Shown here piece after piece: positions 30,071-52,863 of a stretch of DNA of 64,000 nt. The DNA is from Psychroserpens sp. GTDB taxonomy: Bacteria > Bacteroidota > Bacteroidia > Flavobacteriales > Flavobacteriaceae. The stretch spans positions 137,182-201,181 of the forward strand of contig NZ_JBALVR010000005.1 in the NCBI RefSeq assembly GCF_036960315.1, in the 5' to 3' direction. Every line of letters starts with the position of its first letter. Within the stretch, counting starts at the first letter, position 1. Both the position numbers and the translations under genes were made by a program. The notes below the pieces were generated by a model. That model was given only the letters and a program-made list of their open reading frames with translations. It was not told the DNA's origin and ran no database searches.

Positions 30071-30072
30071 TT

Positions 30073-32714: not shown

Positions 32715-32718
32715 AAGT

Positions 32719-32878
32719 GTGGTCCCACTTGGAATACTATATATTATAGTAATGTATAGTGTTGTGGAGTAATACGGAGTTTTCAATATACTATAGCTAT
32801 CTCAAAATAGTGATATGGAGTAGTATGGATGCATAAAGGTTTGAGCATTGATTTATCCATCTTTTATTGCTTTCAAAT
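32719..32878 (+). repeat. att-arm repeat copy A3 beginning with the tRNA 3'-end duplicate
   Basis: GTGGTCCCACTTGG (32719-32732) equals 52789-52802; 18-mer at +44 identical to A2; 36-mer at +94 is 34/36 to A2. Confidence 0.85.
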
Positions 32879-32879
32879 A

Positions 32880-35717
32880 TTAATTACCCAACGAGTTATT
32901 ATCCAAATCAATTAAAAATTCAACTAAATTTTGCTCGCGTTTGAGTTTGAGTTTTTTTCTGAGTCTATATCTAGCGAGTTCAACTCCTCTTGTAGTTATA
33001 TTTAAAAGTTTTGATATTTCTTTAGAACTCATGTTCATTCTTAAGAAAGCTGCTAGTTTTATTTCTCTAGGTGAAAGATGAATATTATTTCTTGATAATT
33101 TCTCTAAATAATTGCCATGCACTTGATCAAAATGATAAGCAAATTGATCCCAAGAATCATTGTCGGATAATTCTTGATCAATAGTTTTAATTAGTCGTCT
33201 TAGTTCTTGTTTAGAGCCACCTTCATCTAATGTTGAGCCAATTTTATCTTGAACATTTTGTATAAATTCCTTGTTCTTTAGTAATTGCATAGTAATAGAT
33301 GTCAATTGTCCATTTTTAAGATCGAGTTCTGTTTGTAACTTTTCGGTATGTAATTGGTCTATTTCTTCATCTTTAATCTTAAGTTCTTTTTCCTTCTCCT
33401 CGGTAATAACTGATTTTTCTGTTTTATACTTTTTACGTTGAATTACTGGTATTAAAATAAAGGTGAGTAAACCAATACCAAAGTATCCCAACTTAGCTGT
33501 TTGAGTAGCGTACCATGGTGTTAAAACTTCAAATGAAAAAGTGGATATTTCACTTTCTAAACCATATAAATTAAGTGCTTTAACCTCAAAAGTATATTGA
33601 CCATATGGTAAGTGTTCGTAACCTTTTTCGCTCATTGGAGACCATTTAGACCAGTTATCATCTAATGGTGTCAATCTATAGCTATACTCTAGGTCTTCAA
33701 AGCCATCAAAATATGGGGAAGTATATTCTATTTTGATGGTTTGGTTTGTGTTTATTTCTAAGGCCTTTGTAAATGATGGATTAATGGTTGAAGTTGAATC
33801 CTTACTTTTAGTAACTTCAATAGACCTGATCAGTACGGAAAAATCTTTATTTATATGATGCTTTTTTAAAGGATTGTAATGGATAAAACCTTCTTTAGCA
33901 CCAATTAGAATATTCTTCTCATTAATAATAGAAATACTTTGAAGGTCATCATTTATAAATTTATTAATATGCTTGAATACTGAGGTTTCTTTTTGAAATT
34001 TACCATAACTCTCCTCTTTAAGAACACCGAGCTCTAGATTTTGAATATAGTAAATAGAATTATCTTCAGCAGTTACTAATTTACTTACATGGTCTTTGCC
34101 AAGCATCTCATTAAAAAAGGTGTTAGAAGAAAATTTTAAAGTGTTAGGGTCGAAATCATAAATCCCTTGTTCAGATGTAAAGATTAATTTTCCTTTCAGT
34201 TTGTATGAGCTTATTAAAATGTTAGACGGAAACCCGCTATGTTTACCAAAATGTTGAATCTCATTTTTAAGTTGCATGTTCCTATCTAACTCTAATTTAT
34301 ATGCGCCTTTATAACCGTGAGTCATCCAAAGCGTAGAGTCATTTTCAAATTCTAATATTCTTGAAGATTCTGTTAGGTTAGGGATTTCTCCTATTCTATT
34401 CCATTTACCATTTAGTTTCTTAAAATATCTAATGCCTTGATAGTCTCCACCCATTATGAGATTTGGATCACTTGTTCTAATAAATTTCCAACTTCCAATA
34501 TCATGAAATTTGTCTAAACTATTACCATTAATTTTAAAAGCACCTTGGTGGTGATTTAAAATAAGTTCATTATCAATTTGCGAAAAATTATAAACCTGAC
34601 CTTCACTACCGGAAACAAACTGGTATTTAATAGAGTTTTTAGGCTCCTCTTTATGGTTTTGTGTAAAAACACCATTACTTGTGCCTAAATAAATCGTTTC
34701 TTTAAAGTTATGAGAGGCATACCCTGTACCTTCAACACCTACTTCTTCATTTATAAAAGAAAAAGGTAAACTCATTTTTAAGTAATCAATCCCATTATTT
34801 AATGCAATCCATAAATTATTATAGTTGTCTTCATAAACCGAATTTACTGTTCTGTCAGATAAACCATTATTTTTCGTTAAGTGTTGCTTTATAGTATAGT
34901 TAGAATTAAGAATAAACAAGCCATTATTTTGAGTGCCTATAGCACAACCCCCGTTGTTAAGCTTTATAACTGAATTAATAGATCCAAATTCCTTTGAATA
35001 ATCTTTAAAAGGCACATTCGATTTACCATACTTGTAGATAATTCCTATTCTGCTGAAATAAAAATCATCATCATCTTTTTCTAATATACCAACTAGTTCT
35101 GGTAATAAATTTGTCCCTGAGATTGGTTGAAACTCGTCATTAACAAACTCAAATAAACCTTCTTCATGAAATTGAACAATTAGCTTATTTTTATATTTAA
35201 ACGAAGCATGCAAAACACCTGGTGTTTCCAATTCTTTTATTTCAGAACCATTAAAAACTAAGAGTTTACTTTCTGTATTAAAAAATATACTCTCATCAAC
35301 TTCAATAATTTTCCAGATTTCTGATATCGACCTAGAACTAGCCTCGAGATTATCAACTAATGAGGTAAACTCAAAGCCATTTGTAGTGTTATTAAAATAG
35401 CCTATTTGATTTTGACCACCAATAAAAACCCTGTTTTTACTATCTACTTTAACTACTCGAATTTTTGTTGCCAAAGGAACCCTGTATTTATTCCATTTGT
35501 TTCCATCAAATTCTAAAAGACCTTCATTATTTGCAGCATACAAAATGCCATTCTCATCCTGATCAAAACTCCAGTTTTGAATACTTCCCTTATAATCCTC
35601 TGAATCAAAATGTGATTTCAGGGGTATTCTATTCAAGTTAATAAAATCATTTGCTTGTGAAAAAATTTCACTGGTAAACAAAAGCATTAAAATCAAATTC
35701 AGTATTCGAAAATACAT
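32880..35717 (-). CDS. PUL sensor-regulator: periplasmic beta-propeller + Y_Y_Y domain + TM + LuxR-type HTH
   Basis: QNWSFDQ...AANNEGLLEFDG, LEYSYRL...YTFEVKA, LSPREIKLAAFLRMNMSSKEISKLLNITTRGVELARYRLRKKL; divergent from the PUL. Confidence 0.9.
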   Translation of the reverse strand: MYFRILNLILMLLFTSEIFSQANDFINLNRIPLKSHFDSEDYKGSIQNWSFDQDENGILYAANNEGLLEFDGNKWNKYRVPLATKIRVVKVDSKNRVFIGGQNQIGYFNNTTNGFEFTSLVDNLEASSRSISEIWKIIEVDESIFFNTESKLLVFNGSEIKELETPGVLHASFKYKNKLIVQFHEEGLFEFVNDEFQPISGTNLLPELVGILEKDDDDFYFSRIGIIYKYGKSNVPFKDYSKEFGSINSVIKLNNGGCAIGTQNNGLFILNSNYTIKQHLTKNNGLSDRTVNSVYEDNYNNLWIALNNGIDYLKMSLPFSFINEEVGVEGTGYASHNFKETIYLGTSNGVFTQNHKEEPKNSIKYQFVSGSEGQVYNFSQIDNELILNHHQGAFKINGNSLDKFHDIGSWKFIRTSDPNLIMGGDYQGIRYFKKLNGKWNRIGEIPNLTESSRILEFENDSTLWMTHGYKGAYKLELDRNMQLKNEIQHFGKHSGFPSNILISSYKLKGKLIFTSEQGIYDFDPNTLKFSSNTFFNEMLGKDHVSKLVTAEDNSIYYIQNLELGVLKEESYGKFQKETSVFKHINKFINDDLQSISIINEKNILIGAKEGFIHYNPLKKHHINKDFSVLIRSIEVTKSKDSTSTINPSFTKALEINTNQTIKIEYTSPYFDGFEDLEYSYRLTPLDDNWSKWSPMSEKGYEHLPYGQYTFEVKALNLYGLESEISTFSFEVLTPWYATQTAKLGYFGIGLLTFILIPVIQRKKYKTEKSVITEEKEKELKIKDEEIDQLHTEKLQTELDLKNGQLTSITMQLLKNKEFIQNVQDKIGSTLDEGGSKQELRRLIKTIDQELSDNDSWDQFAYHFDQVHGNYLEKLSRNNIHLSPREIKLAAFLRMNMSSKEISKLLNITTRGVELARYRLRKKLKLKREQNLVEFLIDLDNNSLGN

Positions 35718-35805
35718 ATCGTGAGTTTTATTAATTAATCTAATGTATTAATAAAATTAACTAATGCTTGTAAAATCGATGTGAAATTGATTTTATGAGA
35801 GGTTT

Positions 35806-35849
35806 TGATGAGTTTTATTTTAATTACTGATGAGTTTTTGATGTAGTGT
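35806..35849 (+). promoter_or_regulatory. Phased TGATG direct repeats in the divergent PUL promoter
   Basis: TGATGAGTTTT at 35806 and 35828, TGATGTAGTGT at 35839 (22- and 11-bp spacing). Confidence 0.45.
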
Positions 35850-36036
35850 GTTTTAACTTTTAGGACACCATAAAGTCTACATTTGAAGAGATGTTTTGAT
35901 TTCATAGTAGTGTTGCACACCAAATAACCTTCTTTAGGTTACAACACTTAATCAAATTCAAAATTAATTCTAAATAGCATGTTCAACAACAATTATTTTG
36001 ATGCATTTATATACACAATTAACTAAAACTATTATT

Positions 36037-37530
36037 ATGAAAAAAATTACTTTACTATTTATTTTGGTTTTGACTACCTCTTTTGGTTTTGCTCAATTTA
36101 CAGATGGAACTTTTGATGATCCGTCGGCTTGGACGGTTATCCAACAAAATGGAAATAATAATGCAACTGCAGTTATTGCTAGTGGCGTAGCTACATTTGA
36201 TGTTATTGATGGTACTGCTTCTTGGGGAGCCGAAGGCCATGTTGCCATTTACAAAGCATTTACTGTTCCATCAACGGGATGGTATGAGTTTGACGCATAT
36301 GTTACAACAAATGGAGTAAATGAACACTGGTTTGAAGTACATGTTGGTACTGCAGCTCCTGTAGATGGGGTGGAGTATAATGCTACAAAAATATTAACTC
36401 TTCACTCTTGGGACTGTGGAGCTACAACAAATACATATTCTGGTTCTATGATTGCTACAGGTTGCCAAGGTTTAGATGGGAAAATTCAGCTAGATGCTGG
36501 CACTACCTATTACTATCTTGTTAGAACAGGTGGAATAACTTGGGGTACTGGAGGAGTAACATTGGACAATATAACTATGGTTGCTGACGTAGCGCAACCA
36601 GTTGCGAGCTTTACAGAAACAACATCTGTATCAGATCTAGATGCTACTTTTACTAACACATCTACAGATGCAACAAGCTATTCTTGGGATTTTGGAGATG
36701 GTTCAACTTCTACCGATGAAAATCCGGCTACCCATACGTATGCTTATAAAGGTCAGTATTTTGTTTCTTTAACAGCTACAAGTGCTGCAGGTTCTAATGA
36801 AACTACTCAAGAAATTTTTGTTGGTGCAGTTACTACACCAGTTTCTGATTTTAGTTTTGATTTTAGTTTACCGACTCCACTCAGAAATGAGAGTCTTCTT
36901 GATTATGTTGAAACTGGTGGCGTTGCTACAGCTTCAGGTGTAAATGACGATTGGTGGTCTCAAGTAAAATATATTAATGATGCAGGAATAGATTTATCTT
37001 CAGCAGATAGAGGTTTTTCAATTAATGTAAATGGACCAAGAACATCAACACTTACAATAAAAGTTGAAAGTGGTGGAACGGAGCATGTTGTAACTGCTGA
37101 CTATACTACACCAAATGCATGGCAAACACTTACGTTTGATTTTTCAAGCTTTAGCTCTACTGATAATACTAAAATAGCATTGTTTTTTGATATTCAAACT
37201 AATTTTGATGGTGGAGTTGACCCCGCTCAAAATGTTTTTCAAATAGATGATTTTATATTTGGCGAATTTACTGCACTAAGTGTTAATGATTTTCAAATTG
37301 AAGGCCTAAAAATATATCCAAATCCAACAAATAATTCTTGGAGTATTTCTACTAAAAATGTAGTTATCAATACAATAGAAGTATTTGATATACTTGGTAA
37401 AAGAGTGATTGCTTTAAACCCTAACACAGCAACAACAATTATCGATGCTACAAACTTAACTTCTGGAATTTATATAACAAAAATTAGTACCGAATTAGGA
37501 ACAGAAACTAAAAAATTGATTAAACAATAG
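36037..37530 (+). CDS. Non-catalytic T9SS-secreted protein: CBM-like module + PKD + second CBM-like module + type A CTD
   Basis: Signal peptide from ATG 36037; PKD (SYSWDFGDG); WQTLTFDFS...KIALFFD...FQIDDF module; IYPNPT CTD; no recognisable GH motif. Confidence 0.8.
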   Translation: MKKITLLFILVLTTSFGFAQFTDGTFDDPSAWTVIQQNGNNNATAVIASGVATFDVIDGTASWGAEGHVAIYKAFTVPSTGWYEFDAYVTTNGVNEHWFEVHVGTAAPVDGVEYNATKILTLHSWDCGATTNTYSGSMIATGCQGLDGKIQLDAGTTYYYLVRTGGITWGTGGVTLDNITMVADVAQPVASFTETTSVSDLDATFTNTSTDATSYSWDFGDGSTSTDENPATHTYAYKGQYFVSLTATSAAGSNETTQEIFVGAVTTPVSDFSFDFSLPTPLRNESLLDYVETGGVATASGVNDDWWSQVKYINDAGIDLSSADRGFSINVNGPRTSTLTIKVESGGTEHVVTADYTTPNAWQTLTFDFSSFSSTDNTKIALFFDIQTNFDGGVDPAQNVFQIDDFIFGEFTALSVNDFQIEGLKIYPNPTNNSWSISTKNVVINTIEVFDILGKRVIALNPNTATTIIDATNLTSGIYITKISTELGTETKKLIKQ

Positions 37531-37628
37531 CAATTGCAATATCTCAAATCAACTAATTAGAAGGCTAGGGATTTATAAAGGCTCAAATGAATGGAAATAT
37601 TTAACCATCTAAGCTAAACCAAATATAT

Positions 37629-40600
37629 ATGAAGACAATATTTTTAAATTGTTCAAAAAACCTTAAGAAAAAGAACCTGTTTACTCTAGCACTTTTATTT
37701 TGCATGAGTATAGGTTTGGCTCAAATTTCGGTTTCAGGAAATGTAACTGATGATGCAACAAAACTGCCTATACCAGGAGTAAATGTAATTATTAAAGGGA
37801 CAGCTAGAGGTGTGGCAACCGATTTTGATGGTAATTTTTCTATTGAGGCTGCAAGAGGTGATATCCTTGTGATATCATATTTAGGCTATGTAACTAAGGA
37901 AATAGAGATAAAAGATGTAACAAATTTGATAATCACCTTAATTGAAGATACTAATACTTTAGATGAAGTTGTAGTAGTTGGATATGGTACTAAATCAAAA
38001 AGAAAGTTAATTTCTGCAGTCTCAATTGTCGATGAGAAAACATTAAAGAAATTACCTGTTGCTTCTGTAAGTAATGGGTTAGAAGGATTGGCTTCAGGTT
38101 TATTTGTAAGGCAAACCTCGGGTGAACCCGGTTTTAGTAATTCTTCCTTTGAAGTAAGAAATTTTGGTAATGCCTTGGTGATTGTTGATGGTGCTCCTGG
38201 AGATATAAATCAGTTAGATGCTAATGAAATCGAAAGTATTTCGGTATTAAAAGATGCAGCAGCAGCAGCTGTTTATGGAGTGCAAGGTGGTAATGGCGTC
38301 GTTTTAATTACTACAAAAAAAGGAAAAATAGGAAAGCCTAAACTAACGTATAGCAATCAATTCACTTATACGTCACTCACCTCATACCCCGGTTTTTTGA
38401 CTTCTGCACAATATGGTGAAGTTTTAAATGAAGGTTTAAGGAATTCGAATCAAGCACCTTTTTACACAGAAGAAGAAATTGAGTTATTTGGATCAGGTGC
38501 AGATCCTATTAATTATCCAAATACAGATTGGAAAAATTTAGTTATAAAAGATTGGGGCTTTCAGCAACGTCATAATTTAAACCTTACAGGCGGTACAGAA
38601 AAGATAAATTATTTTGTGTCAGCTGGTTATTTAGATCAAGGCTCTAATTATAATGCAGACGTGCTTTCTTATCAACAGTACAATTTGCGATCTAACATTA
38701 ATGCCAAGATTACTGATAATTTACAATTAACATTTAACCTTGGTGCTCGTAGAAAGTTAAATGAGGCACCAGCTTATTCAGCCTTTGATATTTTTAGAGA
38801 ATTAAGTAGAGCGCTTCCAACAGATTTAGCTTATTATCCGGATGGAACACCTGCAAAACCTAGCGTGAGTCCAAATCATATAGTAGAAGGAATAAAAGAT
38901 TTTAATGCTGGGTATTTTCGTAGAAGAAATAACAATTTCGATGCTAAAATATCTCTAAAATGGGATATTAATCAAGTAGAAGGCCTTAGTTTAAAAACAT
39001 ATGCCTCTCTTATTTATGATACTTCATTTCAAAAAGACTGGGGGAAAACTTACAACCTTTATACTCTAAATAGTCAAACAGGGGATTATGATGTATTCCG
39101 AGCAACTCCACCAGGAGCATTTAGTGAAACAGTTCTAGAAGAGGGGACAAGCTATAGCAATCAATATGTGTTGCAGGAGTCTATTAATTACGAGCGTACT
39201 TTTGGGGATCATAGTATTTCAGCATTAGCATTAATGGAAGTACAAAAAGCGCAAGGGGAAAATTTTAGTGGTAGACGTCAAGATTTCCAATCTACTTTAA
39301 TCGATCAACTTTTTGCAGGATCTCTTGAGAATCAAGGAGCTGATGGTGGTGAATATCGCGAAAATCGATTGGGTTTTGTTGGTAGATTTAGTTGGGATTA
39401 TCAGTCAAAATATTTTATAGAATCTACCTTAAGGTATGATGGTTCATCACGTTTTGCTCCAGGCAAAGAATGGGGATTGTTCCCGTCGATTTCATTAGGT
39501 TGGAGATTATCTGATGAAACGTTTTTTGAACCTTTAAAAAAGACTATTTCTGACTTCAAATTAAGAGCTTCAGTAGGTACGGCTGGTTTTGATGGCACTG
39601 CCGCTTACCAATGGTTAAGTGGTTTTAACTACAATCACTTCTTTTCAATCAATGATACAGCCATTCCGACAATTGATAATACCGCTCTAGCAAACGCAGA
39701 TCTTACATGGGAAACTAATACCACTTATGATGTAGGTTTCGATGCTTCTTTATTTAATAGAGAGCTCACAGTATCATTCGATTATTTCTTTAGAAAGAGA
39801 GAAGACGTTATCGCTAGAGCCACTTCAAGTGTACCAAGTACATTAGGTGTAGCAGTGGCAGATCAAAATCTATTCGAATTTTCAAACGAAGGTTTTGAAT
39901 TCTCATTAAATTATCAAAAACAATTGACTGATAATTTAAAAATAAATGCCTTATTAAATTTTTCAAAATCAAGAGAAAAAGCTGTGTTCATTGATGAAAC
40001 ACTTCAAGAGGACCCATTCATGGCCGAAAACTTAACCGTCACTGGTGGGTTTACAAATCTTAGAAGAGGTTATATTTCTGCAGGCCTGTTTCAAAGCCAA
40101 GACGAGATTGACCAATGGGCAGTACAAGACGGTAATGGAAATTCTACAATACAACCCGGTGATGTTAGGTATCGAGACCTAAACGAAGATGGTGTTATAG
40201 ATGTAAGAGATCAAAAAGTGTTTGGAGACGGCGATAAACCTGCTGTAAATTACTCTTTAAATCTAGGAGTTGAATACAAAAATTTTGCTTTATCTGTATT
40301 ACTAACTGGTGCTGCTGGTTATGATATTTACTTAGATGGTGAAGCTCAAAGTCCTCTTAGAAATGGCTTTAATGGTTACGATTACCAACTAGATTATTGG
40401 ACGCCTCAAAATACTAATGCAGCTTTTCCTAGAATTGCAGATGGTGGGTTTAACGATAACAATTACAGGCACTCTGATTTTTGGCTAAGGAAAGGAAATC
40501 ACTTAAGATTTAAGAATATTAACCTAAGTTATACTCTACCAAAATTTAAAACAAACCTAGGTTTTGATGAGATGACGGTCTTTGTAACTGGTTATAATCT

Positions 40601-40712
40601 ATTAGTAATTAAAGATTACGATGAGGATTTTGATCCTCAAAATACATCCTCTGTTGGATGGTATTATCCACAAACAAAATCCATAACATTTGGTGTTAAT
40701 GTATCACTTTAA
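37629..40712 (+). CDS. susC: SusC/RagA TonB-dependent transporter
   Basis: LDEVVVVGYGT, KDAAAAAVYGVQGGNGVVLITTKKG, LTWETN, YYPQTKSITFGVNVSL. Confidence 0.95.
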   Translation: MKTIFLNCSKNLKKKNLFTLALLFCMSIGLAQISVSGNVTDDATKLPIPGVNVIIKGTARGVATDFDGNFSIEAARGDILVISYLGYVTKEIEIKDVTNLIITLIEDTNTLDEVVVVGYGTKSKRKLISAVSIVDEKTLKKLPVASVSNGLEGLASGLFVRQTSGEPGFSNSSFEVRNFGNALVIVDGAPGDINQLDANEIESISVLKDAAAAAVYGVQGGNGVVLITTKKGKIGKPKLTYSNQFTYTSLTSYPGFLTSAQYGEVLNEGLRNSNQAPFYTEEEIELFGSGADPINYPNTDWKNLVIKDWGFQQRHNLNLTGGTEKINYFVSAGYLDQGSNYNADVLSYQQYNLRSNINAKITDNLQLTFNLGARRKLNEAPAYSAFDIFRELSRALPTDLAYYPDGTPAKPSVSPNHIVEGIKDFNAGYFRRRNNNFDAKISLKWDINQVEGLSLKTYASLIYDTSFQKDWGKTYNLYTLNSQTGDYDVFRATPPGAFSETVLEEGTSYSNQYVLQESINYERTFGDHSISALALMEVQKAQGENFSGRRQDFQSTLIDQLFAGSLENQGADGGEYRENRLGFVGRFSWDYQSKYFIESTLRYDGSSRFAPGKEWGLFPSISLGWRLSDETFFEPLKKTISDFKLRASVGTAGFDGTAAYQWLSGFNYNHFFSINDTAIPTIDNTALANADLTWETNTTYDVGFDASLFNRELTVSFDYFFRKREDVIARATSSVPSTLGVAVADQNLFEFSNEGFEFSLNYQKQLTDNLKINALLNFSKSREKAVFIDETLQEDPFMAENLTVTGGFTNLRRGYISAGLFQSQDEIDQWAVQDGNGNSTIQPGDVRYRDLNEDGVIDVRDQKVFGDGDKPAVNYSLNLGVEYKNFALSVLLTGAAGYDIYLDGEAQSPLRNGFNGYDYQLDYWTPQNTNAAFPRIADGGFNDNNYRHSDFWLRKGNHLRFKNINLSYTLPKFKTNLGFDEMTVFVTGYNLLVIKDYDEDFDPQNTSSVGWYYPQTKSITFGVNVSL

Positions 40713-40722
40713 AAAAACTACT

Positions 40723-44370: not shown

Positions 44371-47300
44371 ATGAAAAATTATATACTCCTTTTAGGATTT
44401 TTGATTATGACCTCTTTAGGTTGGAGTCAAGGTCTGCACACACAAGGAACACAAATAGTCAATGCAAATGACGAGGAAGTTCTTTTAAGAGGGTATGGTC
44501 CTGGTGGATGGCAAATCATGGAGGGTTATATGATGCAAACCTCTGGGTTTGCAGGTACTCAACATGAGATAAAAGAGAGGTTGGTTGATTTAATGGGAGA
44601 AACCAATACAGAAACATTTTTCTCCCAATGGAGAGAAAACCACTTTACCCAACGCGATGTAGATTCTTTAGCTGCTTGGGGATTCAATAGTATACGTATC
44701 CCTATGCACTATAATCTATTTACGCTTCCGATTCAGGAAGAACCTGTTGCGGGAGAAAACACATGGATAGAAACAGGTTTTGAATTGATAGACGATGTCT
44801 TAGCATGGGCAGCACCTCATGACATATATGTGATCTTAGATATGCATGCTACACCTGGTGGACAGGGTACTGCTTCAGCAGAAATTAACGACTATAATCC
44901 TTTATATCCATCGTTGTGGGAAAGTCAAGAAAATAGAGATAAGCTTGTAGCCTTATGGACCAGAATAGCAGATCGCTATAAAGATAATGAATGGATTGGT
45001 GGTTATGACCTTATCAATGAAACCCATTATGATTTACCAGGTAACACATTATTACGCGAAGTCTTTGAGGATATTACTGCAGGTATACGAAGTGTTGGTG
45101 ATAATCATATAATATATATCGAAGGTAACTCGTACGCCAATGATCACAGTGGTTTAACACCACCTTGGGATAGTAATATGGTTTACAGTTTTCATAAATA
45201 TTGGAACACAAATAACGTTAATGATTTAGATTGGATTTTACCATTAAGAGAGCAACAAAACGTTCCGCTTTGGATGGGAGAATCAGGAGAAAATTCTAAC
45301 ACTTGGTATACTGATGCTGTCTCTTTATTTGAAGACAATAACATTGGTTGGGCTTGGTGGGCCGTTCGTAAAATTGGTGGTTTAAATAGCCCTTACGATA
45401 TTGATCTTAATCCAGGTTATCAAGATATTTTAGATTACTGGCAAGGTAATGGACTGCAACCAACAGCTACAGAGGCTTTTAATAGTATGATGGAACTCGC
45501 AGACAATCTGTTGGTAGATAACAGTAGCTTTAGAAAGGACGTGCCTGATGCATTAATAAGACAAGTGCAAACCGATGAAACTATTCCTTATCATGGAACA
45601 CCATCAGCAATTCCTGGAGTGGTTCATATGTCGGATTTTGATTTAGGGAAAAATAATTTCGCCTATTACGATACTGTAGATGCTACCTATCATTTGTCGG
45701 GCGGTGATTTTCAAGCTTGGAACACCGGATGGTCTTACCGAAATGATGGTGTAGATATTGAAAAAAATACAGATAATGTAAATAGCAACGGATTTCATGT
45801 AGGTTGGGTTGAGCAAGGCGAGTGGATGAAATATACAATTGAGGTAGATGAAACGGCTGTATACAAAGCAAGTATAAGATTAGCTACAGAACAAACTGGA
45901 GGAGAATTCTTCCTTTCTATAGACGATCAAGAAGTAACGACCACACAAGTTGTGAGTGCAACAGGAGGATGGACACAATTTGCCACTTATGAAATTAATG
46001 ATATTATTCTTCCAGCAGGAGAACACGCTTTAAAATTGCATATTAATAATGGTATTCCTGCAAATTATAGTAGTATCGAATTTGAAAATACAGGAACATT
46101 AGATGCATTGGCACTAACCGCTTTAAATGGTAAAACTGGGGAAGATGAAAAATCTTTAGAGGTTACAATTAGTGAAGCTGTTTTGGCATCATCATTAAAC
46201 GCTACTGCAGATCAATTCACTGTTCTTATTAACGGTGAAGAAAAGACCGTTACATCTGTTACAGCAGACCCATTAAGAGATCGCTTGTTTATTCTTAACC
46301 TTGAAGATTTCTTTCTTTTAGGCGATGTAATAACGGTAAGTTATGCAGGAACTGCAATTCAATCAGAGTCTGGAAAAATTTTAAATACATTTACAGATTT
46401 AGTGATTAATAATATAGCTCCAGATCGTGTTATAATACCTGCTGTCATTCAAGTCGAAGATTTTGATGTTATGGTAGGCATGGGATTAGAAGATACTATT
46501 GATGAAGGTGGTGGTCAAAATTTAGGATTTACAGATGCTGGAGATTATGCCGACTATTCTATTTTCGTGCCTGCAACGGGTCTTTATGGAATTAAATTTA
46601 GAGTCGCAGGATTTAGCGAGGGACAGATTGGATTGTATTCTGTTGATAGCAATGATGTTGAAACAGAATTAATTGTTGTTAATACTGTTATTACAAATGG
46701 TTGGCAAACATGGGAAACGGTTATAGATAACTTAACTATTGAAGAAGGAGTTCATACTTTAAGAATGAAGGTTCTAGCAGGTGGATTTAATTTTAATTGG
46801 ATGGAGTTCGATTATCCTGATAGTGATGGAGATGGAGTTTTAGATGATGATGATCTTTGTCCAAATACACCAGAAGGAGCAGTGGTTGATCTAACAGGTT
46901 GTGCGGTTTTCAACTTATCACCAGAGAATTATGCGATAGCTGTATTTAGTGAAACATGTCGATCTGCAAATAATGGTAGTATTTCACTATCAGCATTAGA
47001 AAACTACAACTATACAATCAACCTTACAGGGGGAAATTATGCAGCAACTGAAATGTTTACTTCAGACATTAGTTTCGAAAATTTATCAGCGGGCACTTAT
47101 AATCTATGCATTACAATAGATGGACAGCCAAACTACGAGCAATGTTTTACAGTCATAGTGATTGAGCCAGATGAATTGAGTGTTAACTTAAATAGGATTG
47201 CCAACTCTTCAAGCCTAAACGTAACTGCAGACGGAGGAGAGGTTTACTATGTCACTTTAAATGGCGAGACATTCATTACGGATGAGAGTGAAATAGAGTT

Positions 47301-47628
47301 ACAACTATCTAATGGTATTAACGAGTTAAGTGTAAGGACAAATAAAGATTGTCAAGGAGTTTATGAGAAAACTATACTTGTAAATACTGAACCTTTAGTA
47401 TATCCTAATCCAATTCACAATACTTTATTTATTAATACAGGAGACATAAGTATGACTACAGTGCCTGTAGAAATCTATGATTTAGCAGGAAAACTAATAT
47501 TTTCTAAAACATTCAACGCAACCACGAATACATTGAGGGTTGATTTGTCAAACATAACAAGTGGCTTTTTCATTTTGAGAATAGTCACCACAGAAAAAAC
47601 ATATAATTATAAAATGGTAAAGCAATGA
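44371..47628 (+). CDS. Multimodular GH5 glucanase (GH5 + two CBM6-like modules + TSP3-like repeat + T9SS CTD)
   Basis: WGFNSIRIPMHY, DLINETH (acid/base), WMGESGEN (nucleophile); two GEWMKY/GDYADY CBM6-like units; DSDGDGVLDDDDLCPNTP; VYPNP CTD. Confidence 0.9.
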   Translation: MKNYILLLGFLIMTSLGWSQGLHTQGTQIVNANDEEVLLRGYGPGGWQIMEGYMMQTSGFAGTQHEIKERLVDLMGETNTETFFSQWRENHFTQRDVDSLAAWGFNSIRIPMHYNLFTLPIQEEPVAGENTWIETGFELIDDVLAWAAPHDIYVILDMHATPGGQGTASAEINDYNPLYPSLWESQENRDKLVALWTRIADRYKDNEWIGGYDLINETHYDLPGNTLLREVFEDITAGIRSVGDNHIIYIEGNSYANDHSGLTPPWDSNMVYSFHKYWNTNNVNDLDWILPLREQQNVPLWMGESGENSNTWYTDAVSLFEDNNIGWAWWAVRKIGGLNSPYDIDLNPGYQDILDYWQGNGLQPTATEAFNSMMELADNLLVDNSSFRKDVPDALIRQVQTDETIPYHGTPSAIPGVVHMSDFDLGKNNFAYYDTVDATYHLSGGDFQAWNTGWSYRNDGVDIEKNTDNVNSNGFHVGWVEQGEWMKYTIEVDETAVYKASIRLATEQTGGEFFLSIDDQEVTTTQVVSATGGWTQFATYEINDIILPAGEHALKLHINNGIPANYSSIEFENTGTLDALALTALNGKTGEDEKSLEVTISEAVLASSLNATADQFTVLINGEEKTVTSVTADPLRDRLFILNLEDFFLLGDVITVSYAGTAIQSESGKILNTFTDLVINNIAPDRVIIPAVIQVEDFDVMVGMGLEDTIDEGGGQNLGFTDAGDYADYSIFVPATGLYGIKFRVAGFSEGQIGLYSVDSNDVETELIVVNTVITNGWQTWETVIDNLTIEEGVHTLRMKVLAGGFNFNWMEFDYPDSDGDGVLDDDDLCPNTPEGAVVDLTGCAVFNLSPENYAIAVFSETCRSANNGSISLSALENYNYTINLTGGNYAATEMFTSDISFENLSAGTYNLCITIDGQPNYEQCFTVIVIEPDELSVNLNRIANSSSLNVTADGGEVYYVTLNGETFITDESEIELQLSNGINELSVRTNKDCQGVYEKTILVNTEPLVYPNPIHNTLFINTGDISMTTVPVEIYDLAGKLIFSKTFNATTNTLRVDLSNITSGFFILRIVTTEKTYNYKMVKQ

Positions 47629-48326
47629 ATAGGTTCAAAAAAATAATTCCGATATGCTTATTTTTAATAATCATTGTTGCTTCTTGTAGCAGTGATGAAG
47701 GAGAAGGAGAAGTAAATACTGTAGATCCTCCAACAGCAGCAACACTTATATTTCCTGAAAATAATACCGAATGTAATGAAGGTATTGTAATTTCTGATAC
47801 TGAAACAGATGTGTTATTTCAATGGGAAGAAGCAACTAATGCTAGTTCTTATGAATTGCAGATTACAGATTTAAATGATGGGACTTCAAGAAACATAAGT
47901 ACACTTTCAAATGAATTTTTGATACGCATTTTAAGAGGTACACCATATTCTTGGTCAGTAAAATCTTTAGCTAGCGGTACTACCGAAACAGCTGAAAGTG
48001 CAGTTTGGAAATTCTATAATGCTGGTCTTCCTGAAGAAAGCCATCCGCCATTTCCGGCAGATGCTGTTAGCCCTCAATCTGGTGCGAGTGTCAATGAAGG
48101 TGTAGTTAATTTACAGTGGGAGGCGTCAGATGTTGACAATGATATAGCATCTTATACAATATATTTTGATACATCAAATCCACCAACTACAGAGGCAGGA
48201 AATACAAGTACTACTAACACAAATGTAACTGTAATGTCTGGACAAGTTTATTATTGGAAAGTCGTAACAACAGATGAGATTGGTAATGCGTCTAACTCGC
48301 AAATTTTTCAATTTGGAGTGAACTAG
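47625..48326 (+). CDS. Lipoprotein with two fibronectin-III-like domains (PUL accessory)
   Basis: Lipobox (VASC); LFQWEEA...YSWSV and LQWEASDVD...YYWKVV repeats. Confidence 0.75.
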   Translation: MNRFKKIIPICLFLIIIVASCSSDEGEGEVNTVDPPTAATLIFPENNTECNEGIVISDTETDVLFQWEEATNASSYELQITDLNDGTSRNISTLSNEFLIRILRGTPYSWSVKSLASGTTETAESAVWKFYNAGLPEESHPPFPADAVSPQSGASVNEGVVNLQWEASDVDNDIASYTIYFDTSNPPTTEAGNTSTTNTNVTVMSGQVYYWKVVTTDEIGNASNSQIFQFGVN

Positions 48327-48386
48327 ATATAGCTAAGGGTCTATTTAAAGCAAAAATGGCTTAAGCAATTCAACTAAGCAGATAAA

Positions 48387-48590
48387 ATGATAACACTTAA
48401 ACAACGAGTGATAGAATATCTGGAAGCGCAACGACCCTATTATGGAGATGAAGAAGTTGAAGATAGTTTAGAAGTTTTAGTAACACAAAACGATGACTTG
48501 TCAAACATGGGTCTATTAAGCAAAGGATTAATTTTAAGACTCATTGATGACTATGAGTTGTACTCAACTATTGAATCTGCTAGTAATTAA
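48387..48590 (+). CDS. Small acidic hypothetical protein
   Basis: 67-aa ORF with AT-rich leader filling the gap, co-oriented with the PUL. Confidence 0.5.
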   Translation: MITLKQRVIEYLEAQRPYYGDEEVEDSLEVLVTQNDDLSNMGLLSKGLILRLIDDYELYSTIESASN

Positions 48591-48608
48591 AAATTAAAAT
48601 ATTAAATA

Positions 48609-49475
48609 ATGACAAAAGCATATTATTATAACTTACTAGGCTTATTCCTTATAGGAATGAGCTCACTATCCTGTATATCAAAAGATAAAGAAAATACCAA
48701 AGAAATAGCAGAATCTAAAGTTTGGAAAGTAGATTTCATAGATAACTTCGATACTTTCAATCCAGATAATTGGCAAGACCAACGCATTTGGGTAAACAAT
48801 GAAACACATTGCTATGTGCCTGATAATGAATTTGGAACAAGAGAAGTTAGTGATGGGACATTAAAATTAAAAGTGGTTAATATTGGAGAAAAACGTAGCT
48901 GTGATAATTTCGATAAACACGGAAAACAGCATCCAGAAACCCAATATGTGGCTGGTCGTATCGCTTCAAAAAATCGAAAAGAGTTTATTAAAGGTAAATG
49001 GACAGCAAGGTTAAAATTAGGAAGTAATGGAGAACCAAGTATGTTTCCAGCTTGGTGGATTCTTGGTGCGCAAAATAACGAACCACCAGTGCAAGAGCCA
49101 AATGAAACAATTTGTTGGCCAATGACAGGTTCTGGTGAGATCGATATTTTTGAACATCACGGAGATCACCATAAAAATAGTTTTACCACAGGAGCCATCA
49201 AAAACTTAGGCGAGTGTGGTAAAGGAGATTGGTGGACTTTGCGTAAAGCTTTCGATGCTACCTTAAACGACTATCACGAATATTCAGTAGAATGGGAAAA
49301 AAGTGATTTAGTCTATCGTGTTGATGGTAAAGAGGTGTATCGTAATGTTGGTGAAGGTGATAAATATCCTGAAGCCATGTTTGCTATTCTTAACTATGCA
49401 AAAATTACCGACTCACCAATGGAAGGAGAATGGGTGATGGAAGTAGATTGGGTAAAGCACGAATACCGAAAATAA
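48609..49475 (+). CDS. GH16 family glycoside hydrolase lipoprotein (laminarinase-like)
   Basis: FPAWWILG and GEIDIFE (ExDxxE) catalytic motif; YHEYSVEW; lipobox SLSC. Confidence 0.9.
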   Translation: MTKAYYYNLLGLFLIGMSSLSCISKDKENTKEIAESKVWKVDFIDNFDTFNPDNWQDQRIWVNNETHCYVPDNEFGTREVSDGTLKLKVVNIGEKRSCDNFDKHGKQHPETQYVAGRIASKNRKEFIKGKWTARLKLGSNGEPSMFPAWWILGAQNNEPPVQEPNETICWPMTGSGEIDIFEHHGDHHKNSFTTGAIKNLGECGKGDWWTLRKAFDATLNDYHEYSVEWEKSDLVYRVDGKEVYRNVGEGDKYPEAMFAILNYAKITDSPMEGEWVMEVDWVKHEYRK

Positions 49476-49488
49476 TATATCATTGAAC

Positions 49489-50970
49489 ATGACTCGAAAA
49501 TATTATAAGCTAATAGCGTTTTTAGTTTTAATTGCATCTTGTACAGATGCTAAAATTAAAGACGTAACAACAACCAAAAATGTATCTAATCCACCCATGG
49601 AAAGTTACAAAAACAAGTCTCTTCAAGTATATACAACAGCTAAGGATACCGAATTACGTTTAACTAAAACTGGTGAGCAAACTTTTAAAGATAAGGTACA
49701 ACCTTTAGAGACTGAAATAGCCGTTTTTGTAAATCCGGAAAAAACATTTCAGGAATATTTGGGCATCGGTGGTGCTATAACTGATGCTTCGGCAGAAGTT
49801 TTTTCAACCTTAAACCCAGAAAAGCAAAATGAACTGCTACAATCTTATTTTGGTAAAGATGGTATTGGATATAATATTATTAGAACAAGTATTCATAGTA
49901 GTGATTTTGGATTGGGTAGTCACACATATATTGAAGAAGGAGATACAGAATTAAAGACATTTTCAATAGAAAAGGATAGAGAAAAGAGATTACCATTTAT
50001 CAAAAGGGCTATCGATTTAATAGAATATGATTTGGTTTTTTATGCAAGCCCTTGGAGTCCGCCCGCCTTTATGAAAAGTAATAAAAACATGCTACGAGGA
50101 GGGAAATTACTTCCTGAATTTCGCCAAACTTGGGCTAACTATTATGTAAAGTTTATTGAGGCTTATGAAGCAGAGGGAATTCCTGTTTGGGGTTTAACAA
50201 TACAAAACGAACCTATGGCTACACAGCGCTGGGAATCTTGCATATACACAGCGGAAGAAGAACGCGATTTCTTAAAAGACTATTTAGGTCCAACATTAGA
50301 AAAAGCAGGTATGGGAGATAAAAATGTTGTGGTGTGGGATCACAACAGAGATTTAATTACAAATAGAGCTAATACTATTTTCGAAGATTCTGAAGCTTCT
50401 AAATATGCTTGGGGAATTGGTTTTCATTGGTATGAAACTTGGACAGGCGGATTACCTAAATATGATAATCTTAAGAACATAAACGAATCTTTTCCTTCTA
50501 AAAATTTGTTGTTTACTGAAGGATGTCAAGAGGGTTTTGCTACAGAAAGATTACACTTTTGGCCAAATGCAGAACGTTATGGAAACTCTATGATTAACGA
50601 CTTTAATAGTGGCGTTGTAGGTTGGACAGATTGGAATATTTTATTAGATGAACGCGGTGGTCCAAACCATGTTGAGAACTTTTGTTTCGCACCAATTCAT
50701 GCAGATACAAAAACAAATGAGTTAATATATACGCCTACCTATTACTATATTGGTCACTTTTCTAAATTTATAAAACCTGGTGCTTTACGCATAAATACAT
50801 CTACAAGCAGAACTACAATAGAAAGCACATCGTTTAAAAATAAAGACGGTAAAATTGTTACTGTAGTTATGAATCCAACAGATACTAAAATAACCTATAA
50901 ACTAATAATTGGTAATAGTGAAGCGGTTCTAGAAATTGAACCTCGTGCAATGCAATCTGTAGTTTATTAA
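49489..50970 (+). CDS. GH30 family glycoside hydrolase lipoprotein (probably beta-1,6-glucanase/glucosylceramidase-like)
   Basis: GIGGAITDAS, ASPWSPPAFMK, TIQNEP (acid/base), LFTEGC (nucleophile), WTDWNILLD...GGPNH, YYIGHFSKFI. Confidence 0.92.
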   Translation: MTRKYYKLIAFLVLIASCTDAKIKDVTTTKNVSNPPMESYKNKSLQVYTTAKDTELRLTKTGEQTFKDKVQPLETEIAVFVNPEKTFQEYLGIGGAITDASAEVFSTLNPEKQNELLQSYFGKDGIGYNIIRTSIHSSDFGLGSHTYIEEGDTELKTFSIEKDREKRLPFIKRAIDLIEYDLVFYASPWSPPAFMKSNKNMLRGGKLLPEFRQTWANYYVKFIEAYEAEGIPVWGLTIQNEPMATQRWESCIYTAEEERDFLKDYLGPTLEKAGMGDKNVVVWDHNRDLITNRANTIFEDSEASKYAWGIGFHWYETWTGGLPKYDNLKNINESFPSKNLLFTEGCQEGFATERLHFWPNAERYGNSMINDFNSGVVGWTDWNILLDERGGPNHVENFCFAPIHADTKTNELIYTPTYYYIGHFSKFIKPGALRINTSTSRTTIESTSFKNKDGKIVTVVMNPTDTKITYKLIIGNSEAVLEIEPRAMQSVVY

Positions 50971-50994
50971 AATTTTAGTTTTCAATACATAATT

Positions 50995-52533
50995 ATGAAT
51001 AAAAAACTTGTCTTTATTGCATTTGTAGTATCCTTAGGTGGATTCCTTTTTGGTTTTGATGCTGGTATTATTTCAGGTGTCATGTCTTTTGCTGGTCCTG
51101 AATTTGATTTAAGTGAAATCCAATCTGGTTGGGTGGTAAGTTCGCCTTCGTTTGCGGCTATGTTCGCTATGCTGTTTTCAGGGAGACTAAGTGATACCTA
51201 TGGAAGAAAAAAAATACTCATTTACGTAGCTTTTCTATATGCCATTTCTGCCTTATTATCTGCCTTAGCAACATCATATGAAATGCTTTATATAGCTAGA
51301 ATAGTTGGTGGTTTAGCTTTTGGTGCCGCTTTAGTGTTAGCACCTATGTATATTGCAGAAATTTCTTCTGCAGAAAATAGAGGCAAACTAGTCTCTTTAC
51401 AACAGCTAAATATTGTTTTTGGTTTTTTCGCAGCATTCTTAAGTAATTATTTTTTCAATAAATACAATACCACAGACAGTAGCTTTCTTACAGACGAAAA
51501 TGTTTGGCGATGGATGTTAGGAGTAGAATTAATACCAGCTATACTCTATTTTATTTTCTTGTTTTTTGTGCCAAAAAGCCCACGTTGGTTGTATTTAAAA
51601 GGAAAAATTGAAGAAGCGAAACAAGTGTTAATTCAAATCCACGGAAAAGAAAATGGAGCACTAGAAATTGCTTCTATTGAAGAAAATATTAATGCTAATA
51701 AGAAGAACAAATCGAAATTAAAAATTAAAGACTTATTAAAACGATCGCTGCGCTTTATTTTGGTTATAGGCTTAATTGTTGGTGTTCTTCAACAAATTAC
51801 TGGTATCAACGCTGTTTACTTCTATGCAACATCAATATTTAAACAAACAGGAATTGGTACAGATGCTGCTTTTTCATCAGGTGTTTTATTAAGCTCAATC
51901 TCAGTGATTTTTACTTTTGTTGCTATCTATTTAATTGATAGAATGGGCAGAAGGCCTTTATTATTAATTGGTACAGCGGGAATTGCTATTAGTTTATTAT
52001 TGTGTGCTTATGGCTTTAATCAAGCTACATATCAACTTCCAAAAGAAAAAATATCTCAGTTTGACTTTTCTGATTCTGAAAAACTTTTGCCTTTTGCAGA
52101 TAAAGTTTATGATAATGATATCGATTTTAAAAACGATATAAAATCCGCTTTAGGAAACCAAATTTATAGTAAAAACGATGGTGCCATTTTAGAGGCGGCA
52201 ACCAATATAAACGCCAATTTAATATTAATTGGAATTCTAGGGTTTATAGCTTGTTTTGCCTTTTCACTTGGCCCAGTAATGTGGGTTTTATTATCAGAGT
52301 TATATCCGTTAAAATATAGAGGTTTAGCTATAGGCGTAATTGCTTTTGTCAACTCACTAATCAGTTCTTTAGTGCAATTAATTTTCCCATGGGAACTATC
52401 AAATATTGGAAATGCCTTAACCTTTTTCATATTCGGAGCTATAGCCTTAATTGGTTTCTTTATACTCTTAAAAATATTACCAGAAACTAAAGGGAGATCT
52501 TTGGAAGAATTAGAAAAGGAGTTAGTTAGATAA
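50995..52533 (+). CDS. Sugar porter family MFS transporter
   Basis: GGFLFGFDAGIISG, DTYGRK, PMYIAEIS, QQITGINAV, DRMGRR, PETKGRSLEE. Confidence 0.95.
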   Translation: MNKKLVFIAFVVSLGGFLFGFDAGIISGVMSFAGPEFDLSEIQSGWVVSSPSFAAMFAMLFSGRLSDTYGRKKILIYVAFLYAISALLSALATSYEMLYIARIVGGLAFGAALVLAPMYIAEISSAENRGKLVSLQQLNIVFGFFAAFLSNYFFNKYNTTDSSFLTDENVWRWMLGVELIPAILYFIFLFFVPKSPRWLYLKGKIEEAKQVLIQIHGKENGALEIASIEENINANKKNKSKLKIKDLLKRSLRFILVIGLIVGVLQQITGINAVYFYATSIFKQTGIGTDAAFSSGVLLSSISVIFTFVAIYLIDRMGRRPLLLIGTAGIAISLLLCAYGFNQATYQLPKEKISQFDFSDSEKLLPFADKVYDNDIDFKNDIKSALGNQIYSKNDGAILEAATNINANLILIGILGFIACFAFSLGPVMWVLLSELYPLKYRGLAIGVIAFVNSLISSLVQLIFPWELSNIGNALTFFIFGAIALIGFFILLKILPETKGRSLEELEKELVR

Positions 52534-52556
52534 ACTTCGGAATAAAAATCAAATTA

Positions 52557-52788
52557 ATTTGAGCATATACTTGAGTTCAGGGTTTTGTATTTCTTTCAAT
52601 GTCACTGTTTATTAGGGTTATAAAAGGTTTAAGGTGGTCCTGTACAGCCTTTGAGTTTTAACTATATTTCAAAACACTATTTGACTACAAGTCAATGACA
52701 GAAGGTGTTTAAAGAAAGTTATTTGAGCATATAGTGTCGCACTCAATAAAAAAACCTCAACAATCTCTACGATTATCAAGGTTTAAAA
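52557..52788 (+). repeat. Two degenerate ~165-bp units next to the tRNA 3' end
   Basis: ATTTGAGCATATA at 52557 and 52721, each followed by AAGGTTTAA(G/AA)GTGGTCC (about 52624 and 52779). Confidence 0.5.
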
Positions 52789-52789
52789 G

Positions 52790-52863
52790 TGGTCCCACTT
52801 GGGCTCGAACCAAGGACCACCTGATTATGAGTCAGGTGCTCTAACCAACTGAGCTATGGGACC
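52790..52863 (-). tRNA. tRNA with CAU anticodon, most likely tRNA-Ile2 (lysidine); elongator Met not excluded; CCA not encoded
   Basis: GGTCCCATAGCTCAGTTGGTTAGAGCACCTGACTCATAATCAGGTGGTCCTTGGTTCGAGCCCAAGTGGGACCA: full cloverleaf; paired G1:C72 (not initiator); C4:G69 and C5:G68 as in TilS substrates. Confidence 0.95.

What the first reader, a model, noticed from the sequence alone, without database searches (positions are those of the whole stretch)
32719..52802. A complete 20-kb beta-glucan PUL bracketed exactly by a 14-bp tRNA direct repeat
Seen: regulator, T9SS binding protein, susC, susD, SGBP, GH5, GH16, GH30 and sugar porter fill the whole interval between GTGGTCCCACTTGG at 32719 and at 52789, with no mobility gene inside. 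Known: SusCD + GH16 + GH30 + GH5/CBM6 is typical of laminarin/beta-1,3/1,6-glucan PULs in marine Bacteroidota. Inference: the whole PUL was acquired, and may still be excisable, as one site-specific unit, and is the newest addition because it adjoins the tRNA.
Basis: partly seen in the sequence, partly recalled or inferred. Interest (0 to 1): 0.7.

Follow-up and report, generated by a model that had tools for sequence, protein, structure and literature searches.

The report
Integrase-less PUL island at a tRNA
A complete 20-kb beta-glucan utilisation gene cluster sits in a marine flavobacterium as cargo of an island with no recombinase, inserted site-specifically at the end of a tRNA gene; it is one of a widespread but ordinary kind of stacked tRNA islands that share conserved end sequences.

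Summary
GTGGTCCCACTTGG occurs exactly at 32719 and at 52789, where it is the 3' end of tRNA(CAT). The interval holds only a regulator plus a SusC/SusD/GH5/GH16/GH30/MFS PUL, with no recombinase.

- A third core (13/14) lies at 29924, next to the genus-typical tRNA terminator.
- Each distal core is followed by a conserved ~125-nt arm with four phased GGAGT repeats.
- The tRNA-proximal end carries a conserved ~100-nt arm.
- A vestigial extra junction lies at 52634.

Three congeners have an empty site, with the tRNA 0.26-0.55 kb from the conserved flank. G000 has about 67 kb inserted there. The same arms bracket unrelated cargo at the same tRNA in other Flavobacteriaceae genera, including a different PUL in Winogradskyella. 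Only two of these islands carry an integrase/PolA/exonuclease module.

The PUL is therefore best read as a CIME-like island acquired by site-specific integration and stacked by accretion. G000 has no cognate integrase, so autonomous excision is unlikely.

This is a new member of a known kind. The scan's index already holds a first-reader note on this same stretch describing the tandem array.

The parts
52789..52863 (-). tRNA with CAT anticodon. ARAGORN calls it Met; it may be the lysidine tRNA-Ile2. Its last 14 nt (52789-52802) are the proximal core copy, i.e. the attL core.
   Evidence: The tRNA-mce-rbfA locus is conserved in 39/39 genus genomes.
52688..52788 (+). Proximal (P') arm: GTCAATGACAG..ATTTGAGCATAT (52722), then a terminator hairpin (~52747-52784) that serves the tRNA.
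   Evidence: Aligns with the tRNA-adjacent ends of the G056 and G263 integrase elements, the G058 PUL island, and the left sides of junctions L046/L050/L052. Absent from the empty-site congeners.
52539..52644 (+). Vestigial second junction: a P'-like arm (TTTGAGCATATAC at 52558) ending in the variant core GTGGTCCTGTA (52634-52644).
   Evidence: TTTAAGGTGGTCCTGTA matches the bona fide core+arm junction of locus L045 at 17/17. A ~110-nt local alignment of window 52.5 kb to L045 was also found.
32880..52533 (.). Cargo: Y_Y_Y/LuxR regulator (-), then on the + strand PKD-T9SS protein, SusC, SusD, PKD SGBP-like, GH5-CBM35-CBM6-T9SS, fn3-like, GH16, GH30 and MFS sugar porter. This is a beta-glucan (laminarin-type) PUL.
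   Evidence: Pfam. For GH16 the nearest solved structures are endo-1,3-beta-glucanases. GH30 and CBM6 matches. A collinear PUL is present in G152.
32733..32853 (+). Distal (P) arm, the 'block': four phased GGAGT repeats and the terminal GATGCATAAAGGTTTGAGCAT.
   Evidence: 81% identical to the consensus of 20 copies from other genera. No RNA structure.
32719..32732 (+). Distal core copy (attR core), 14/14 with the tRNA 3' end. Preceded by a terminator hairpin at 32691-32714.
29924..32718 (.). Older small island: core 13/14 (29924-29937), P arm (29938-30058), then cargo of an AraC-type regulator (-), a PepSY_TM-like protein and a DinB-family protein. It has no P' arm.
29884..29913 (+). Genus-type tRNA terminator (AAAAAAGCCCCACATCTCTGCAAGGCTT), displaced from the tRNA by the insertions.
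   Evidence: Same hairpin as the one directly next to the tRNA in G044, G042, G008, G004 and G050.
16890..17024 (+). Degenerate core + P-arm copy, marking the boundary of an older module.
   Evidence: 75% identical to the consensus and the core is largely lost.
11594..11618 (+). Relic of the inner end of a P arm (GATGTAAGGGGTTTGAGCATTGATT).

Best explanation
The PUL is the cargo of an integrase-less genomic island. A tyrosine integrase with an arm-binding domain inserted it by site-specific recombination into the 3' end of a tRNA(CAT) gene.

The island kept both recombination ends. The distal end is core + ~125-nt P arm with phased GGAGT sites. The proximal end is a ~100-nt P' arm that also supplies the tRNA's terminator. 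The island lacks the integrase / family-A polymerase / exonuclease module found in complete relatives.

It is the tRNA-proximal large member of a tandem array built by repeated insertion at the same tRNA (accretion). The array is about 67 kb relative to empty-site congeners. In this genome the island is a CIME-like passenger: it cannot excise by itself, and could move only if a related helper element supplied the integrase.

Shown here: repeats, arms, empty sites, the same arms around unrelated cargo, and absence of a cognate integrase. Inferred: the recombination chemistry, that the arms are integrase-binding sites, and the order of events.
For: - The repeat of the tRNA 3' end is exact and non-random.
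- Arms are conserved in sequence and spacing at the PUL island, the neighbouring island, G000 contig C34, congener G011 and 20 loci from other genera. These include Winogradskyella, Lacinutrix, Lutibacter and Flavivirga, always as terminator-core-arm.
- GGAGT repeats lie at +38, +48, +58 and +99, i.e. helically phased. No RNA fold and no Rfam hit.
- Empty sites exist in G012 (387 bp), G018 (256 bp) and G044 (551 bp). No examined relative has window genes beside the tRNA.
- The genus-type terminator is displaced to 29884.
- The same arms bracket a different 25-kb PUL in G058, with regulators 28% and MFS 42% identical to those here, and non-PUL cargo in G057, G059 and G011. None of these has an integrase.
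- Complete elements exist in G056 and G263: tRNA, P' arm, exonuclease fusion, PolA, integrase with Arm-DNA-bind_5, cargo, P arm.
- In G263 five exact cores delimit four islands with one integrase. There the P arm is a diverged variant that goes with a 53%-identical integrase.
Against: - No excision product, circle junction or recombination was observed.
- The link between this arm family and the G056/G263 integrase family rests on co-location in two genomes.
- No intermediate with a pseudogenised integrase module was seen, so loss of the module is assumed, not shown.
- G+C is uninformative: PUL 34.2% against genome 33.9%.
- The phylogenetic incongruence rests on one cargo gene and one core gene.
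- The small island at 29924 lacks a P' arm.
- The genus-type terminator at 29884 lies inside the wider variable region, not at its far end. The older part of the array is therefore not explained by this model alone.
Confidence: 0.68

Rival explanations
1. The islands are not decayed elements. They are a dedicated class of recombinase-free, kb-scale cassettes, with whole operons or PULs between conserved P and P' arms. A helper-borne integrase routinely captures, stacks and excises them in trans at the tRNA, like an integron working on a larger scale.
For: - About 10 of 12 arm-bounded islands examined have no integrase: G000 x3-4, G011, G057, G058, G059 and three in G263.
- Arm sequence and the 53-bp internal spacing are conserved across genera.
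- No partial integrase modules were seen.
- P'-core-P units occur as bare junctions in L046/L050/L052.
Against: - Older copies in the window decay (16890, 11594), so arms are not maintained once in place.
- The same integrase-less cargo was not found in two different contexts. Similarity between G057, L043 and L051 stops ~110 nt beyond the arm.
- This arm variant occurs in only 7 of 400 sampled family genomes.
- There is no helper in G000.
Confidence: 0.2
2. The tRNA flank is simply a flexible hot spot remodelled by homologous recombination or other insertions. The core and arm copies would be scars of earlier, unrelated elements, and the PUL arrived between them by another route.
For: The region is hypervariable in the genus, and other element types use the same tRNA with 43-57-bp repeats. 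G+C gives no foreign signal.
Against: The PUL fills the whole interval between a P arm and a P' arm with no extra genes. Both arms are the best-preserved copies in the genome. Another genus has the same arrangement with an unrelated PUL.
Confidence: 0.1
3. The conserved 125-nt block is a small RNA gene or a regulatory region, not a recombination arm.
For: Strong primary-sequence conservation. It is always followed, on the minus strand, by a tRNA-like 3' end and a terminator.
Against: The consensus fold is -4.5 kcal/mol on one strand and 0 on the other, with no covariation. No Rfam family passes threshold. Neighbouring genes vary in identity and orientation.
Confidence: 0.02

Closest known systems
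CIMEs and site-specific accretion (ICESt1 family of Streptococcus thermophilus; reviewed in PMC5704250)
   Same: Elements that keep attL and attR but lack integration and transfer genes. They sit in tandem at the 3' end of a target gene, next to or derived from related integrase-bearing elements.
   Different: Here the host is Flavobacteriaceae and the target is tRNA(CAT). The helper candidate carries integrase + PolA + exonuclease, and no conjugation genes were seen in it (only ten of the G056 element's cargo ORFs were scanned). Cis-mobilisation is untested.
ssrA-specific genomic islands of Dehalococcoides (PMC3146451)
   Same: Many islands with diverse catabolic cargo are stacked at one small-RNA gene. 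Only about half (16 of 31) carry the integration module, and the cargo is phylogenetically discordant with the module.
   Different: The target is tmRNA, not a tRNA. The phylum and integrase family differ, and the cargo is reductive dehalogenases rather than PULs.
NBU1/NBU2-type integrative mobilizable elements of Bacteroides (my own knowledge, not checked here)
   Same: Bacteroidota tyrosine integrases with an arm-binding domain insert into the 3' end of a tRNA gene through a 13-14-bp common core.
   Different: NBU elements carry their own integrase and mobilisation genes. The island here carries neither.
ICE-borne PULs of gut Bacteroides, e.g. the porphyran/agarose loci (my own knowledge; PMC13188876 states that natural PUL exchange has been confirmed experimentally)
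   Same: A whole PUL moves as cargo of an integrated mobile element.
   Different: Those are self-transmissible ICEs with integrase and tra genes. This island has only the att ends.
Integrons
   Same: Recombinase-free modules are inserted serially at one site, with the newest next to the site.
   Different: No IntI, no attI and no folded attC were found. The modules are 3-35 kb with their own promoters and regulators, and the arms are arm-type repeat arrays.

Membership tests
tRNA-integrated genomic island (tyrosine-integrase type) | Direct repeat equal to the 3' end of the tRNA at the far boundary | tested here: met
   14/14 at 32719 against 52789
tRNA-integrated genomic island (tyrosine-integrase type) | Integrase gene inside the island | tested here: not met
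   No PF00589 hit on contig C30, and no integrase domain in any ORF of 100 aa or more in 32719-52802
tRNA-integrated genomic island (tyrosine-integrase type) | Unoccupied site in relatives | tested here: met
   G012, G018 and G044 have the tRNA 256-551 bp from the conserved flank, which corresponds to C30:122,7xx
tRNA-integrated genomic island (tyrosine-integrase type) | Excision to a circle and a restored empty site | not testable with these tools
CIME (cis-mobilizable element; definition in PMC5704250) | attL and attR retained | tested here: met
   Core + P arm at 32719-32853; P' arm + core at 52688-52802. Both are homologous to the ends of integrase-bearing elements
CIME (cis-mobilizable element; definition in PMC5704250) | No integration or transfer genes | tested here: met
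   Pfam on all ORFs
CIME (cis-mobilizable element; definition in PMC5704250) | Derived from, or mobilised by, a related autonomous element | tested here: inconclusive
   Complete relatives exist in G056 and G263. Descent or mobilisation was not shown, and G000 has no such element
ICE | Conjugation module | tested here: not met
   No conjugation domain in the island, and none among the ten cargo ORFs scanned from the 70-kb G056 element
Integron cassette array | IntI, attI and structured attC sites | tested here: not met
   No integrase on the contig. The arm has no conserved hairpin
SusC/SusD polysaccharide utilisation locus | Adjacent susC-susD pair with CAZymes and a regulator | tested here: met
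Laminarin / beta-1,3(1,6)-glucan PUL | GH16 laminarinase-like and GH30 enzymes with beta-glucan-binding CBM6 | tested here: met
   GH16 is closest to ULam111 and ZgLamA/C. GH30 scores 253 bits in Pfam. CBM6 matches. The GH17/GH3 enzymes usual in such PULs are absent
Laminarin / beta-1,3(1,6)-glucan PUL | Growth on, or induction by, the substrate | not testable with these tools
   Needs culture work

The most novel reading that the evidence does not exclude
Flavobacteriaceae may possess a tRNA(CAT)-anchored capture system. In it, recombinase-free modules as large as whole PULs, defined only by two conserved ~100-125-nt arms, would be stacked, exchanged and exported in trans. The recombinase would come from a mobile integrase/PolA/exonuclease helper. 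The system would work like an integron, but for operon- to PUL-sized cassettes.
Probability: 0.2. Interest if true: 0.75.

Novelty: new member of a known kind. Interest (0 to 1): 0.5.

Why it matters
PULs set which algal glycans a marine flavobacterium can eat, and how they spread between genera is largely inferred from patchy distribution. This locus gives a concrete, sequence-defined vehicle: two short arms and a 14-bp tRNA core bracket one PUL here and an unrelated PUL in Winogradskyella. A candidate helper integrase family was also identified. That makes PUL mobility testable with simple att x integrase assays. It also provides a search handle, core plus arm, for finding recently acquired cargo in Flavobacteriaceae genomes and MAGs. 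The underlying principle, accretion of integrase-less islands at a tRNA, is already known from Firmicutes and Dehalococcoides.

Tried and rejected
- Arm as a structured RNA: no Rfam hit and no consensus fold on either strand.
- C34-type integrase of G000, 15 kb from the C34 arm copy, as the cognate enzyme: 30 homologues in other genera lie next to neither a tRNA nor the core or arm.
- C6 integrase of G000, 35% identical to the G056 type: no tRNA or arm nearby and no PolA/exonuclease module.
- Serine recombinases: none in the genome.
- Arm pattern in IMG/VR viral contigs: no hit.
- G+C as a foreignness signal: uninformative.
- Same integrase-less cargo in different contexts (G057 against L043/L051): homology ends ~110 nt past the arm, so this gives no evidence of unit transfer.
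- Common origin of the G000 and G058 PUL islands: rejected, with MFS 42% and regulator 28% identical.
- The best collinear PUL homologue (G152) is not at this tRNA and has no arms.
- Literature searches found no description of this arm or element family.
Full report
OBSERVATION.
GTGGTCCCACTTGG occurs exactly at 32719-32732 and at 52789-52802. A 13/14 copy lies at 29924. With up to 1 mismatch, shuffles give 0.01 matches on average, and none of 100 reached three. ARAGORN finds one tRNA in the window, anticodon CAT, at 52789-52863 on the minus strand. The right-hand copy is therefore the tRNA's last 14 nt: the 3' half of the T stem, the 3' acceptor strand, the discriminator and one more base. Identity ends exactly at 14 bp on both sides.

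The genes are a Y_Y_Y/LuxR regulator, a PKD+T9SS protein, SusC, SusD, a PKD SGBP-like protein, GH5-CBM35-CBM6-T9SS, an fn3-like protein, GH16, GH30 and an MFS porter. The nearest solved relatives of the GH16 are flavobacterial endo-1,3-beta-glucanases. The GH30 and CBM6 matches fit beta-glucan use. The substrate assignment is inference by homology.

ANATOMY OF THE ENDS.
Both distal cores (32719 and 29924) are followed by a homologous ~125-nt block. A degenerate third copy lies at 16890-17024. A relic of its inner end lies at 11594, and a fourth copy is on another contig at C34:138793.

An alignment of 24 copies has 77% mean column identity. It shows four GGAGT repeats at +38, +48, +58 and +99 from the core, and an invariant terminal ATAAAGGTTTGAGCA. 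The consensus fold is -4.5 kcal/mol on one strand and 0 on the other, with no covariation and no Rfam family. This pattern fits phased protein-binding sites (inference), as in the arm of an attP, not an RNA.

On the tRNA side, 52688-52788 (GTCAATGACAG..TTTGAGCATAT..hairpin) aligns with the tRNA-adjacent ends of islands in other genomes. Between the MFS stop (52533) and that arm lies a second, vestigial junction. A P'-like stretch ends in TTTAAGGTGGTCCTGTA at 52628, which matches a genuine core+arm junction (L045) at 17/17. At least one more element was therefore once inserted on the tRNA side and has almost entirely gone.

THE GENUS.
The window is G000:C30:137182-201181. A congener contig is titled Psychroserpens sp., so the genus is probably Psychroserpens.

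All 39 genus genomes keep tRNA-mce-rbfA. In 18 relatives, the up-to-20 kb held on the tRNA's 3' side contains none of the window's genes. The conserved left flank corresponds to C30:111,750-122,750. In G012, G018 and G044 it lies 387, 256 and 551 bp from the tRNA, which are empty sites. G000 therefore carries about 67 kb of inserted DNA.

The hairpin found directly after the tRNA in G044, G042, G008, G004 and G050 (AAAAAAGCCTCACATCTCTGTAAGGCTT) is found in G000 at 29884-29913, immediately left of the 29924 core. This is what integration into the tRNA 3' end predicts: the original 3' end and terminator are pushed to the far side.

G011 has the same terminator-core-arm unit bounding a 7.4-kb integrase-less island. 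G004 and G051 carry other, integrase-bearing elements at this tRNA with 43-47-bp repeats and no such arm.

THE FAMILY.
A strict pattern for the arm found 20 loci in other Flavobacteriaceae. Named records include Winogradskyella, Lacinutrix, Lutibacter, Flavivirga and Mariniflexile. Nearly all have the form terminator-GTGGTCCCAC(A/T)TG-arm, the internal spacing is always 53 bp, and the neighbouring genes are unrelated.

Where long contigs allow, the arm lies on the 3' side of the same tRNA:
- 25 kb away in W. eximia
- 9.7 kb away in a Lacinutrix MAG
- 6.4 kb away in G057

None of these three islands has an integrase. The W. eximia island is another PUL: regulator, SusC/D, two PF10091 enzymes, GH3, GH2, sulfatase, GH43 and MFS. 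It is unrelated to the one here, with regulator 28% and MFS 42% identical.

Two genomes show the complete form.
- In G056 and G263 the tRNA is followed by the same P' arm, an N-terminal-domain + 3'-5' exonuclease fusion, a family-A polymerase, a ~290-aa ORF, and a tyrosine integrase with Arm-DNA-bind_5 and SAM-like domains. Cargo follows, then a core+arm.
- G263 has five exact GTGGTCCCACCTG cores in one orientation (control 0). They delimit four islands of 35, 26, 10 and 34.5 kb, with a single integrase in the tRNA-proximal one.
- The G263 arms have the same length and layout but different internal repeats, and its integrase is 53% identical to that of G056. That arm and integrase vary together is the best evidence here that they belong together.

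This arm variant is sparse: 7 of 400 sampled family genomes, each in a different genus.

ORIGIN OF THE PUL.
Only one other species of 38 in the genus (G006) has the collinear PUL. It is 72-78% identical in DNA and lies about 800 kb from that genome's tRNA. The best collinear copy in a 400-genome family sample is in another genus (G152). It has 65-79% protein identity, a different regulator, and neither the tRNA nor the arms.

SusC is 77% and 76% identical to G152 and G356 but 73% to congener G006. The core FtsX-like gene beside the tRNA shows the reverse: 58% and 58% against 72%. This incongruence fits lateral acquisition, but it rests on one gene of each class. G+C is uninformative.

MECHANISM.
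Most likely (0.68), an element of the integrase/PolA/exonuclease family carrying the PUL as cargo integrated at the tRNA through the 14-bp core. Alternatively, an already integrase-less island was co-integrated with such a helper. Either way the integration module is now absent and both att ends remain, which is the definition of a CIME (PMC5704250). Repeated events built the array.

Shown here: repeats, arms, empty sites, shared arms with unrelated cargo, and complete relatives. Inferred: the binding sites, the crossover position, and the loss of the module.

In G000 there is no tyrosine recombinase on the 344-kb contig and no serine recombinase in the genome. No PolA/exonuclease module exists beyond chromosomal pol I. 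The closest integrase is 35% identical and sits in an unrelated context. Autonomous excision is therefore unlikely.

The 'newest next to the tRNA' rule is reasonable. The cores score 14/14, 13/14 and largely lost with distance from the tRNA. The arms are 81%, 77% and 75% identical to the consensus. The vestigial junction at 52634 qualifies this.

RIVALS.
- A dedicated trans-mobilised cassette system (0.2). It is favoured by the high share of integrase-less islands and the lack of partial modules. It is weakened by decay of the older arms and by failure to find one integrase-less cargo in two contexts.
- Scars plus unrelated insertion (0.1).
- An RNA or regulatory block (0.02).

COMPARISON AND NOVELTY.
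The closest described systems are CIME/ICE accretion in streptococci (PMC5704250) and the ssrA islands of Dehalococcoides, where 16 of 31 islands carry the integration module (PMC3146451). NBU-type tRNA integration in Bacteroides and ICE-borne PULs are further parallels, from my own knowledge. Three literature searches found no description of this arm or element family. I class it as a new member of a known kind.

The scan's index lists a first-reader note on this same stretch describing the integrase-free tandem array. I had reached that reading independently.

Noticed in passing
window 42500-42620 (between susD and the SGBP-like gene): A ~100-110-bp sequence recurs at 81-89% identity in several G000 contigs (C11, C22, C32, C33) and in many genomes of the genus. 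It looks like a REP/MITE-like intergenic repeat.
   Followed up: no
G000 contig C34:138793-161024 (loci L003, L009, L010): A fourth core'+arm copy is followed by a 14.9-kb ECF-sigma / SusC(STN) / SusD / cytochrome-c peroxidase / T9SS / M16 peptidase module. The module ends at TTTAAGGTGGTCC, with no tRNA. Abutting it is a different integrase-HTH_17-VapE-DUF6371 element that runs off the contig.
   Followed up: partly
G263:C1:1211243-1317288 (loci L096, L099-L103): A 106-kb array of four islands is delimited by five exact 13-bp tRNA-end cores. Each island has a diverged arm variant, and only the tRNA-proximal island carries the integrase/PolA/exonuclease module.
   Followed up: partly
G004:C1:3823659-3843693 and G051:C1:306034-330015: Congeners carry 19-23-kb integrase-bearing elements at the same tRNA, with 43-47-bp direct repeats and no conserved arm. 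A second, unrelated element family therefore uses this site.
   Followed up: no
window 52789-52863: ARAGORN calls the CAT-anticodon tRNA Met. Its acceptor stem (C4-G69, C5-G68) and overall likeness to E. coli ileX suggest it may be the lysidine-modified tRNA-Ile2. The genome has a separate initiator-like CAT tRNA on C2 and another CAT tRNA on C7.
   Followed up: no
window 50995-52533: The MFS sugar porter is 512 aa and matches the Sugar_tr profile in two stretches. It carries an extra ~100-aa segment between residues ~340 and ~435, compared with the 458-aa porter of the Winogradskyella island.
   Followed up: no
window 17045-26625: First-reader notes in the index describe integron-like attC cores around a GNAT gene and a TCS/ABC-efflux module, inside the older part of the array. 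I did not examine them. No IntI or other tyrosine recombinase lies on this contig.
   Followed up: no
locus L045/L043 (Flavobacteriaceae bacterium PRS1, RDRZ01000005.1): Two core+arm junctions lie only ~660 bp apart and enclose a single 132-aa ORF. One uses the variant core GTGGTCCTGTA, also seen at window 52634.
   Followed up: partly
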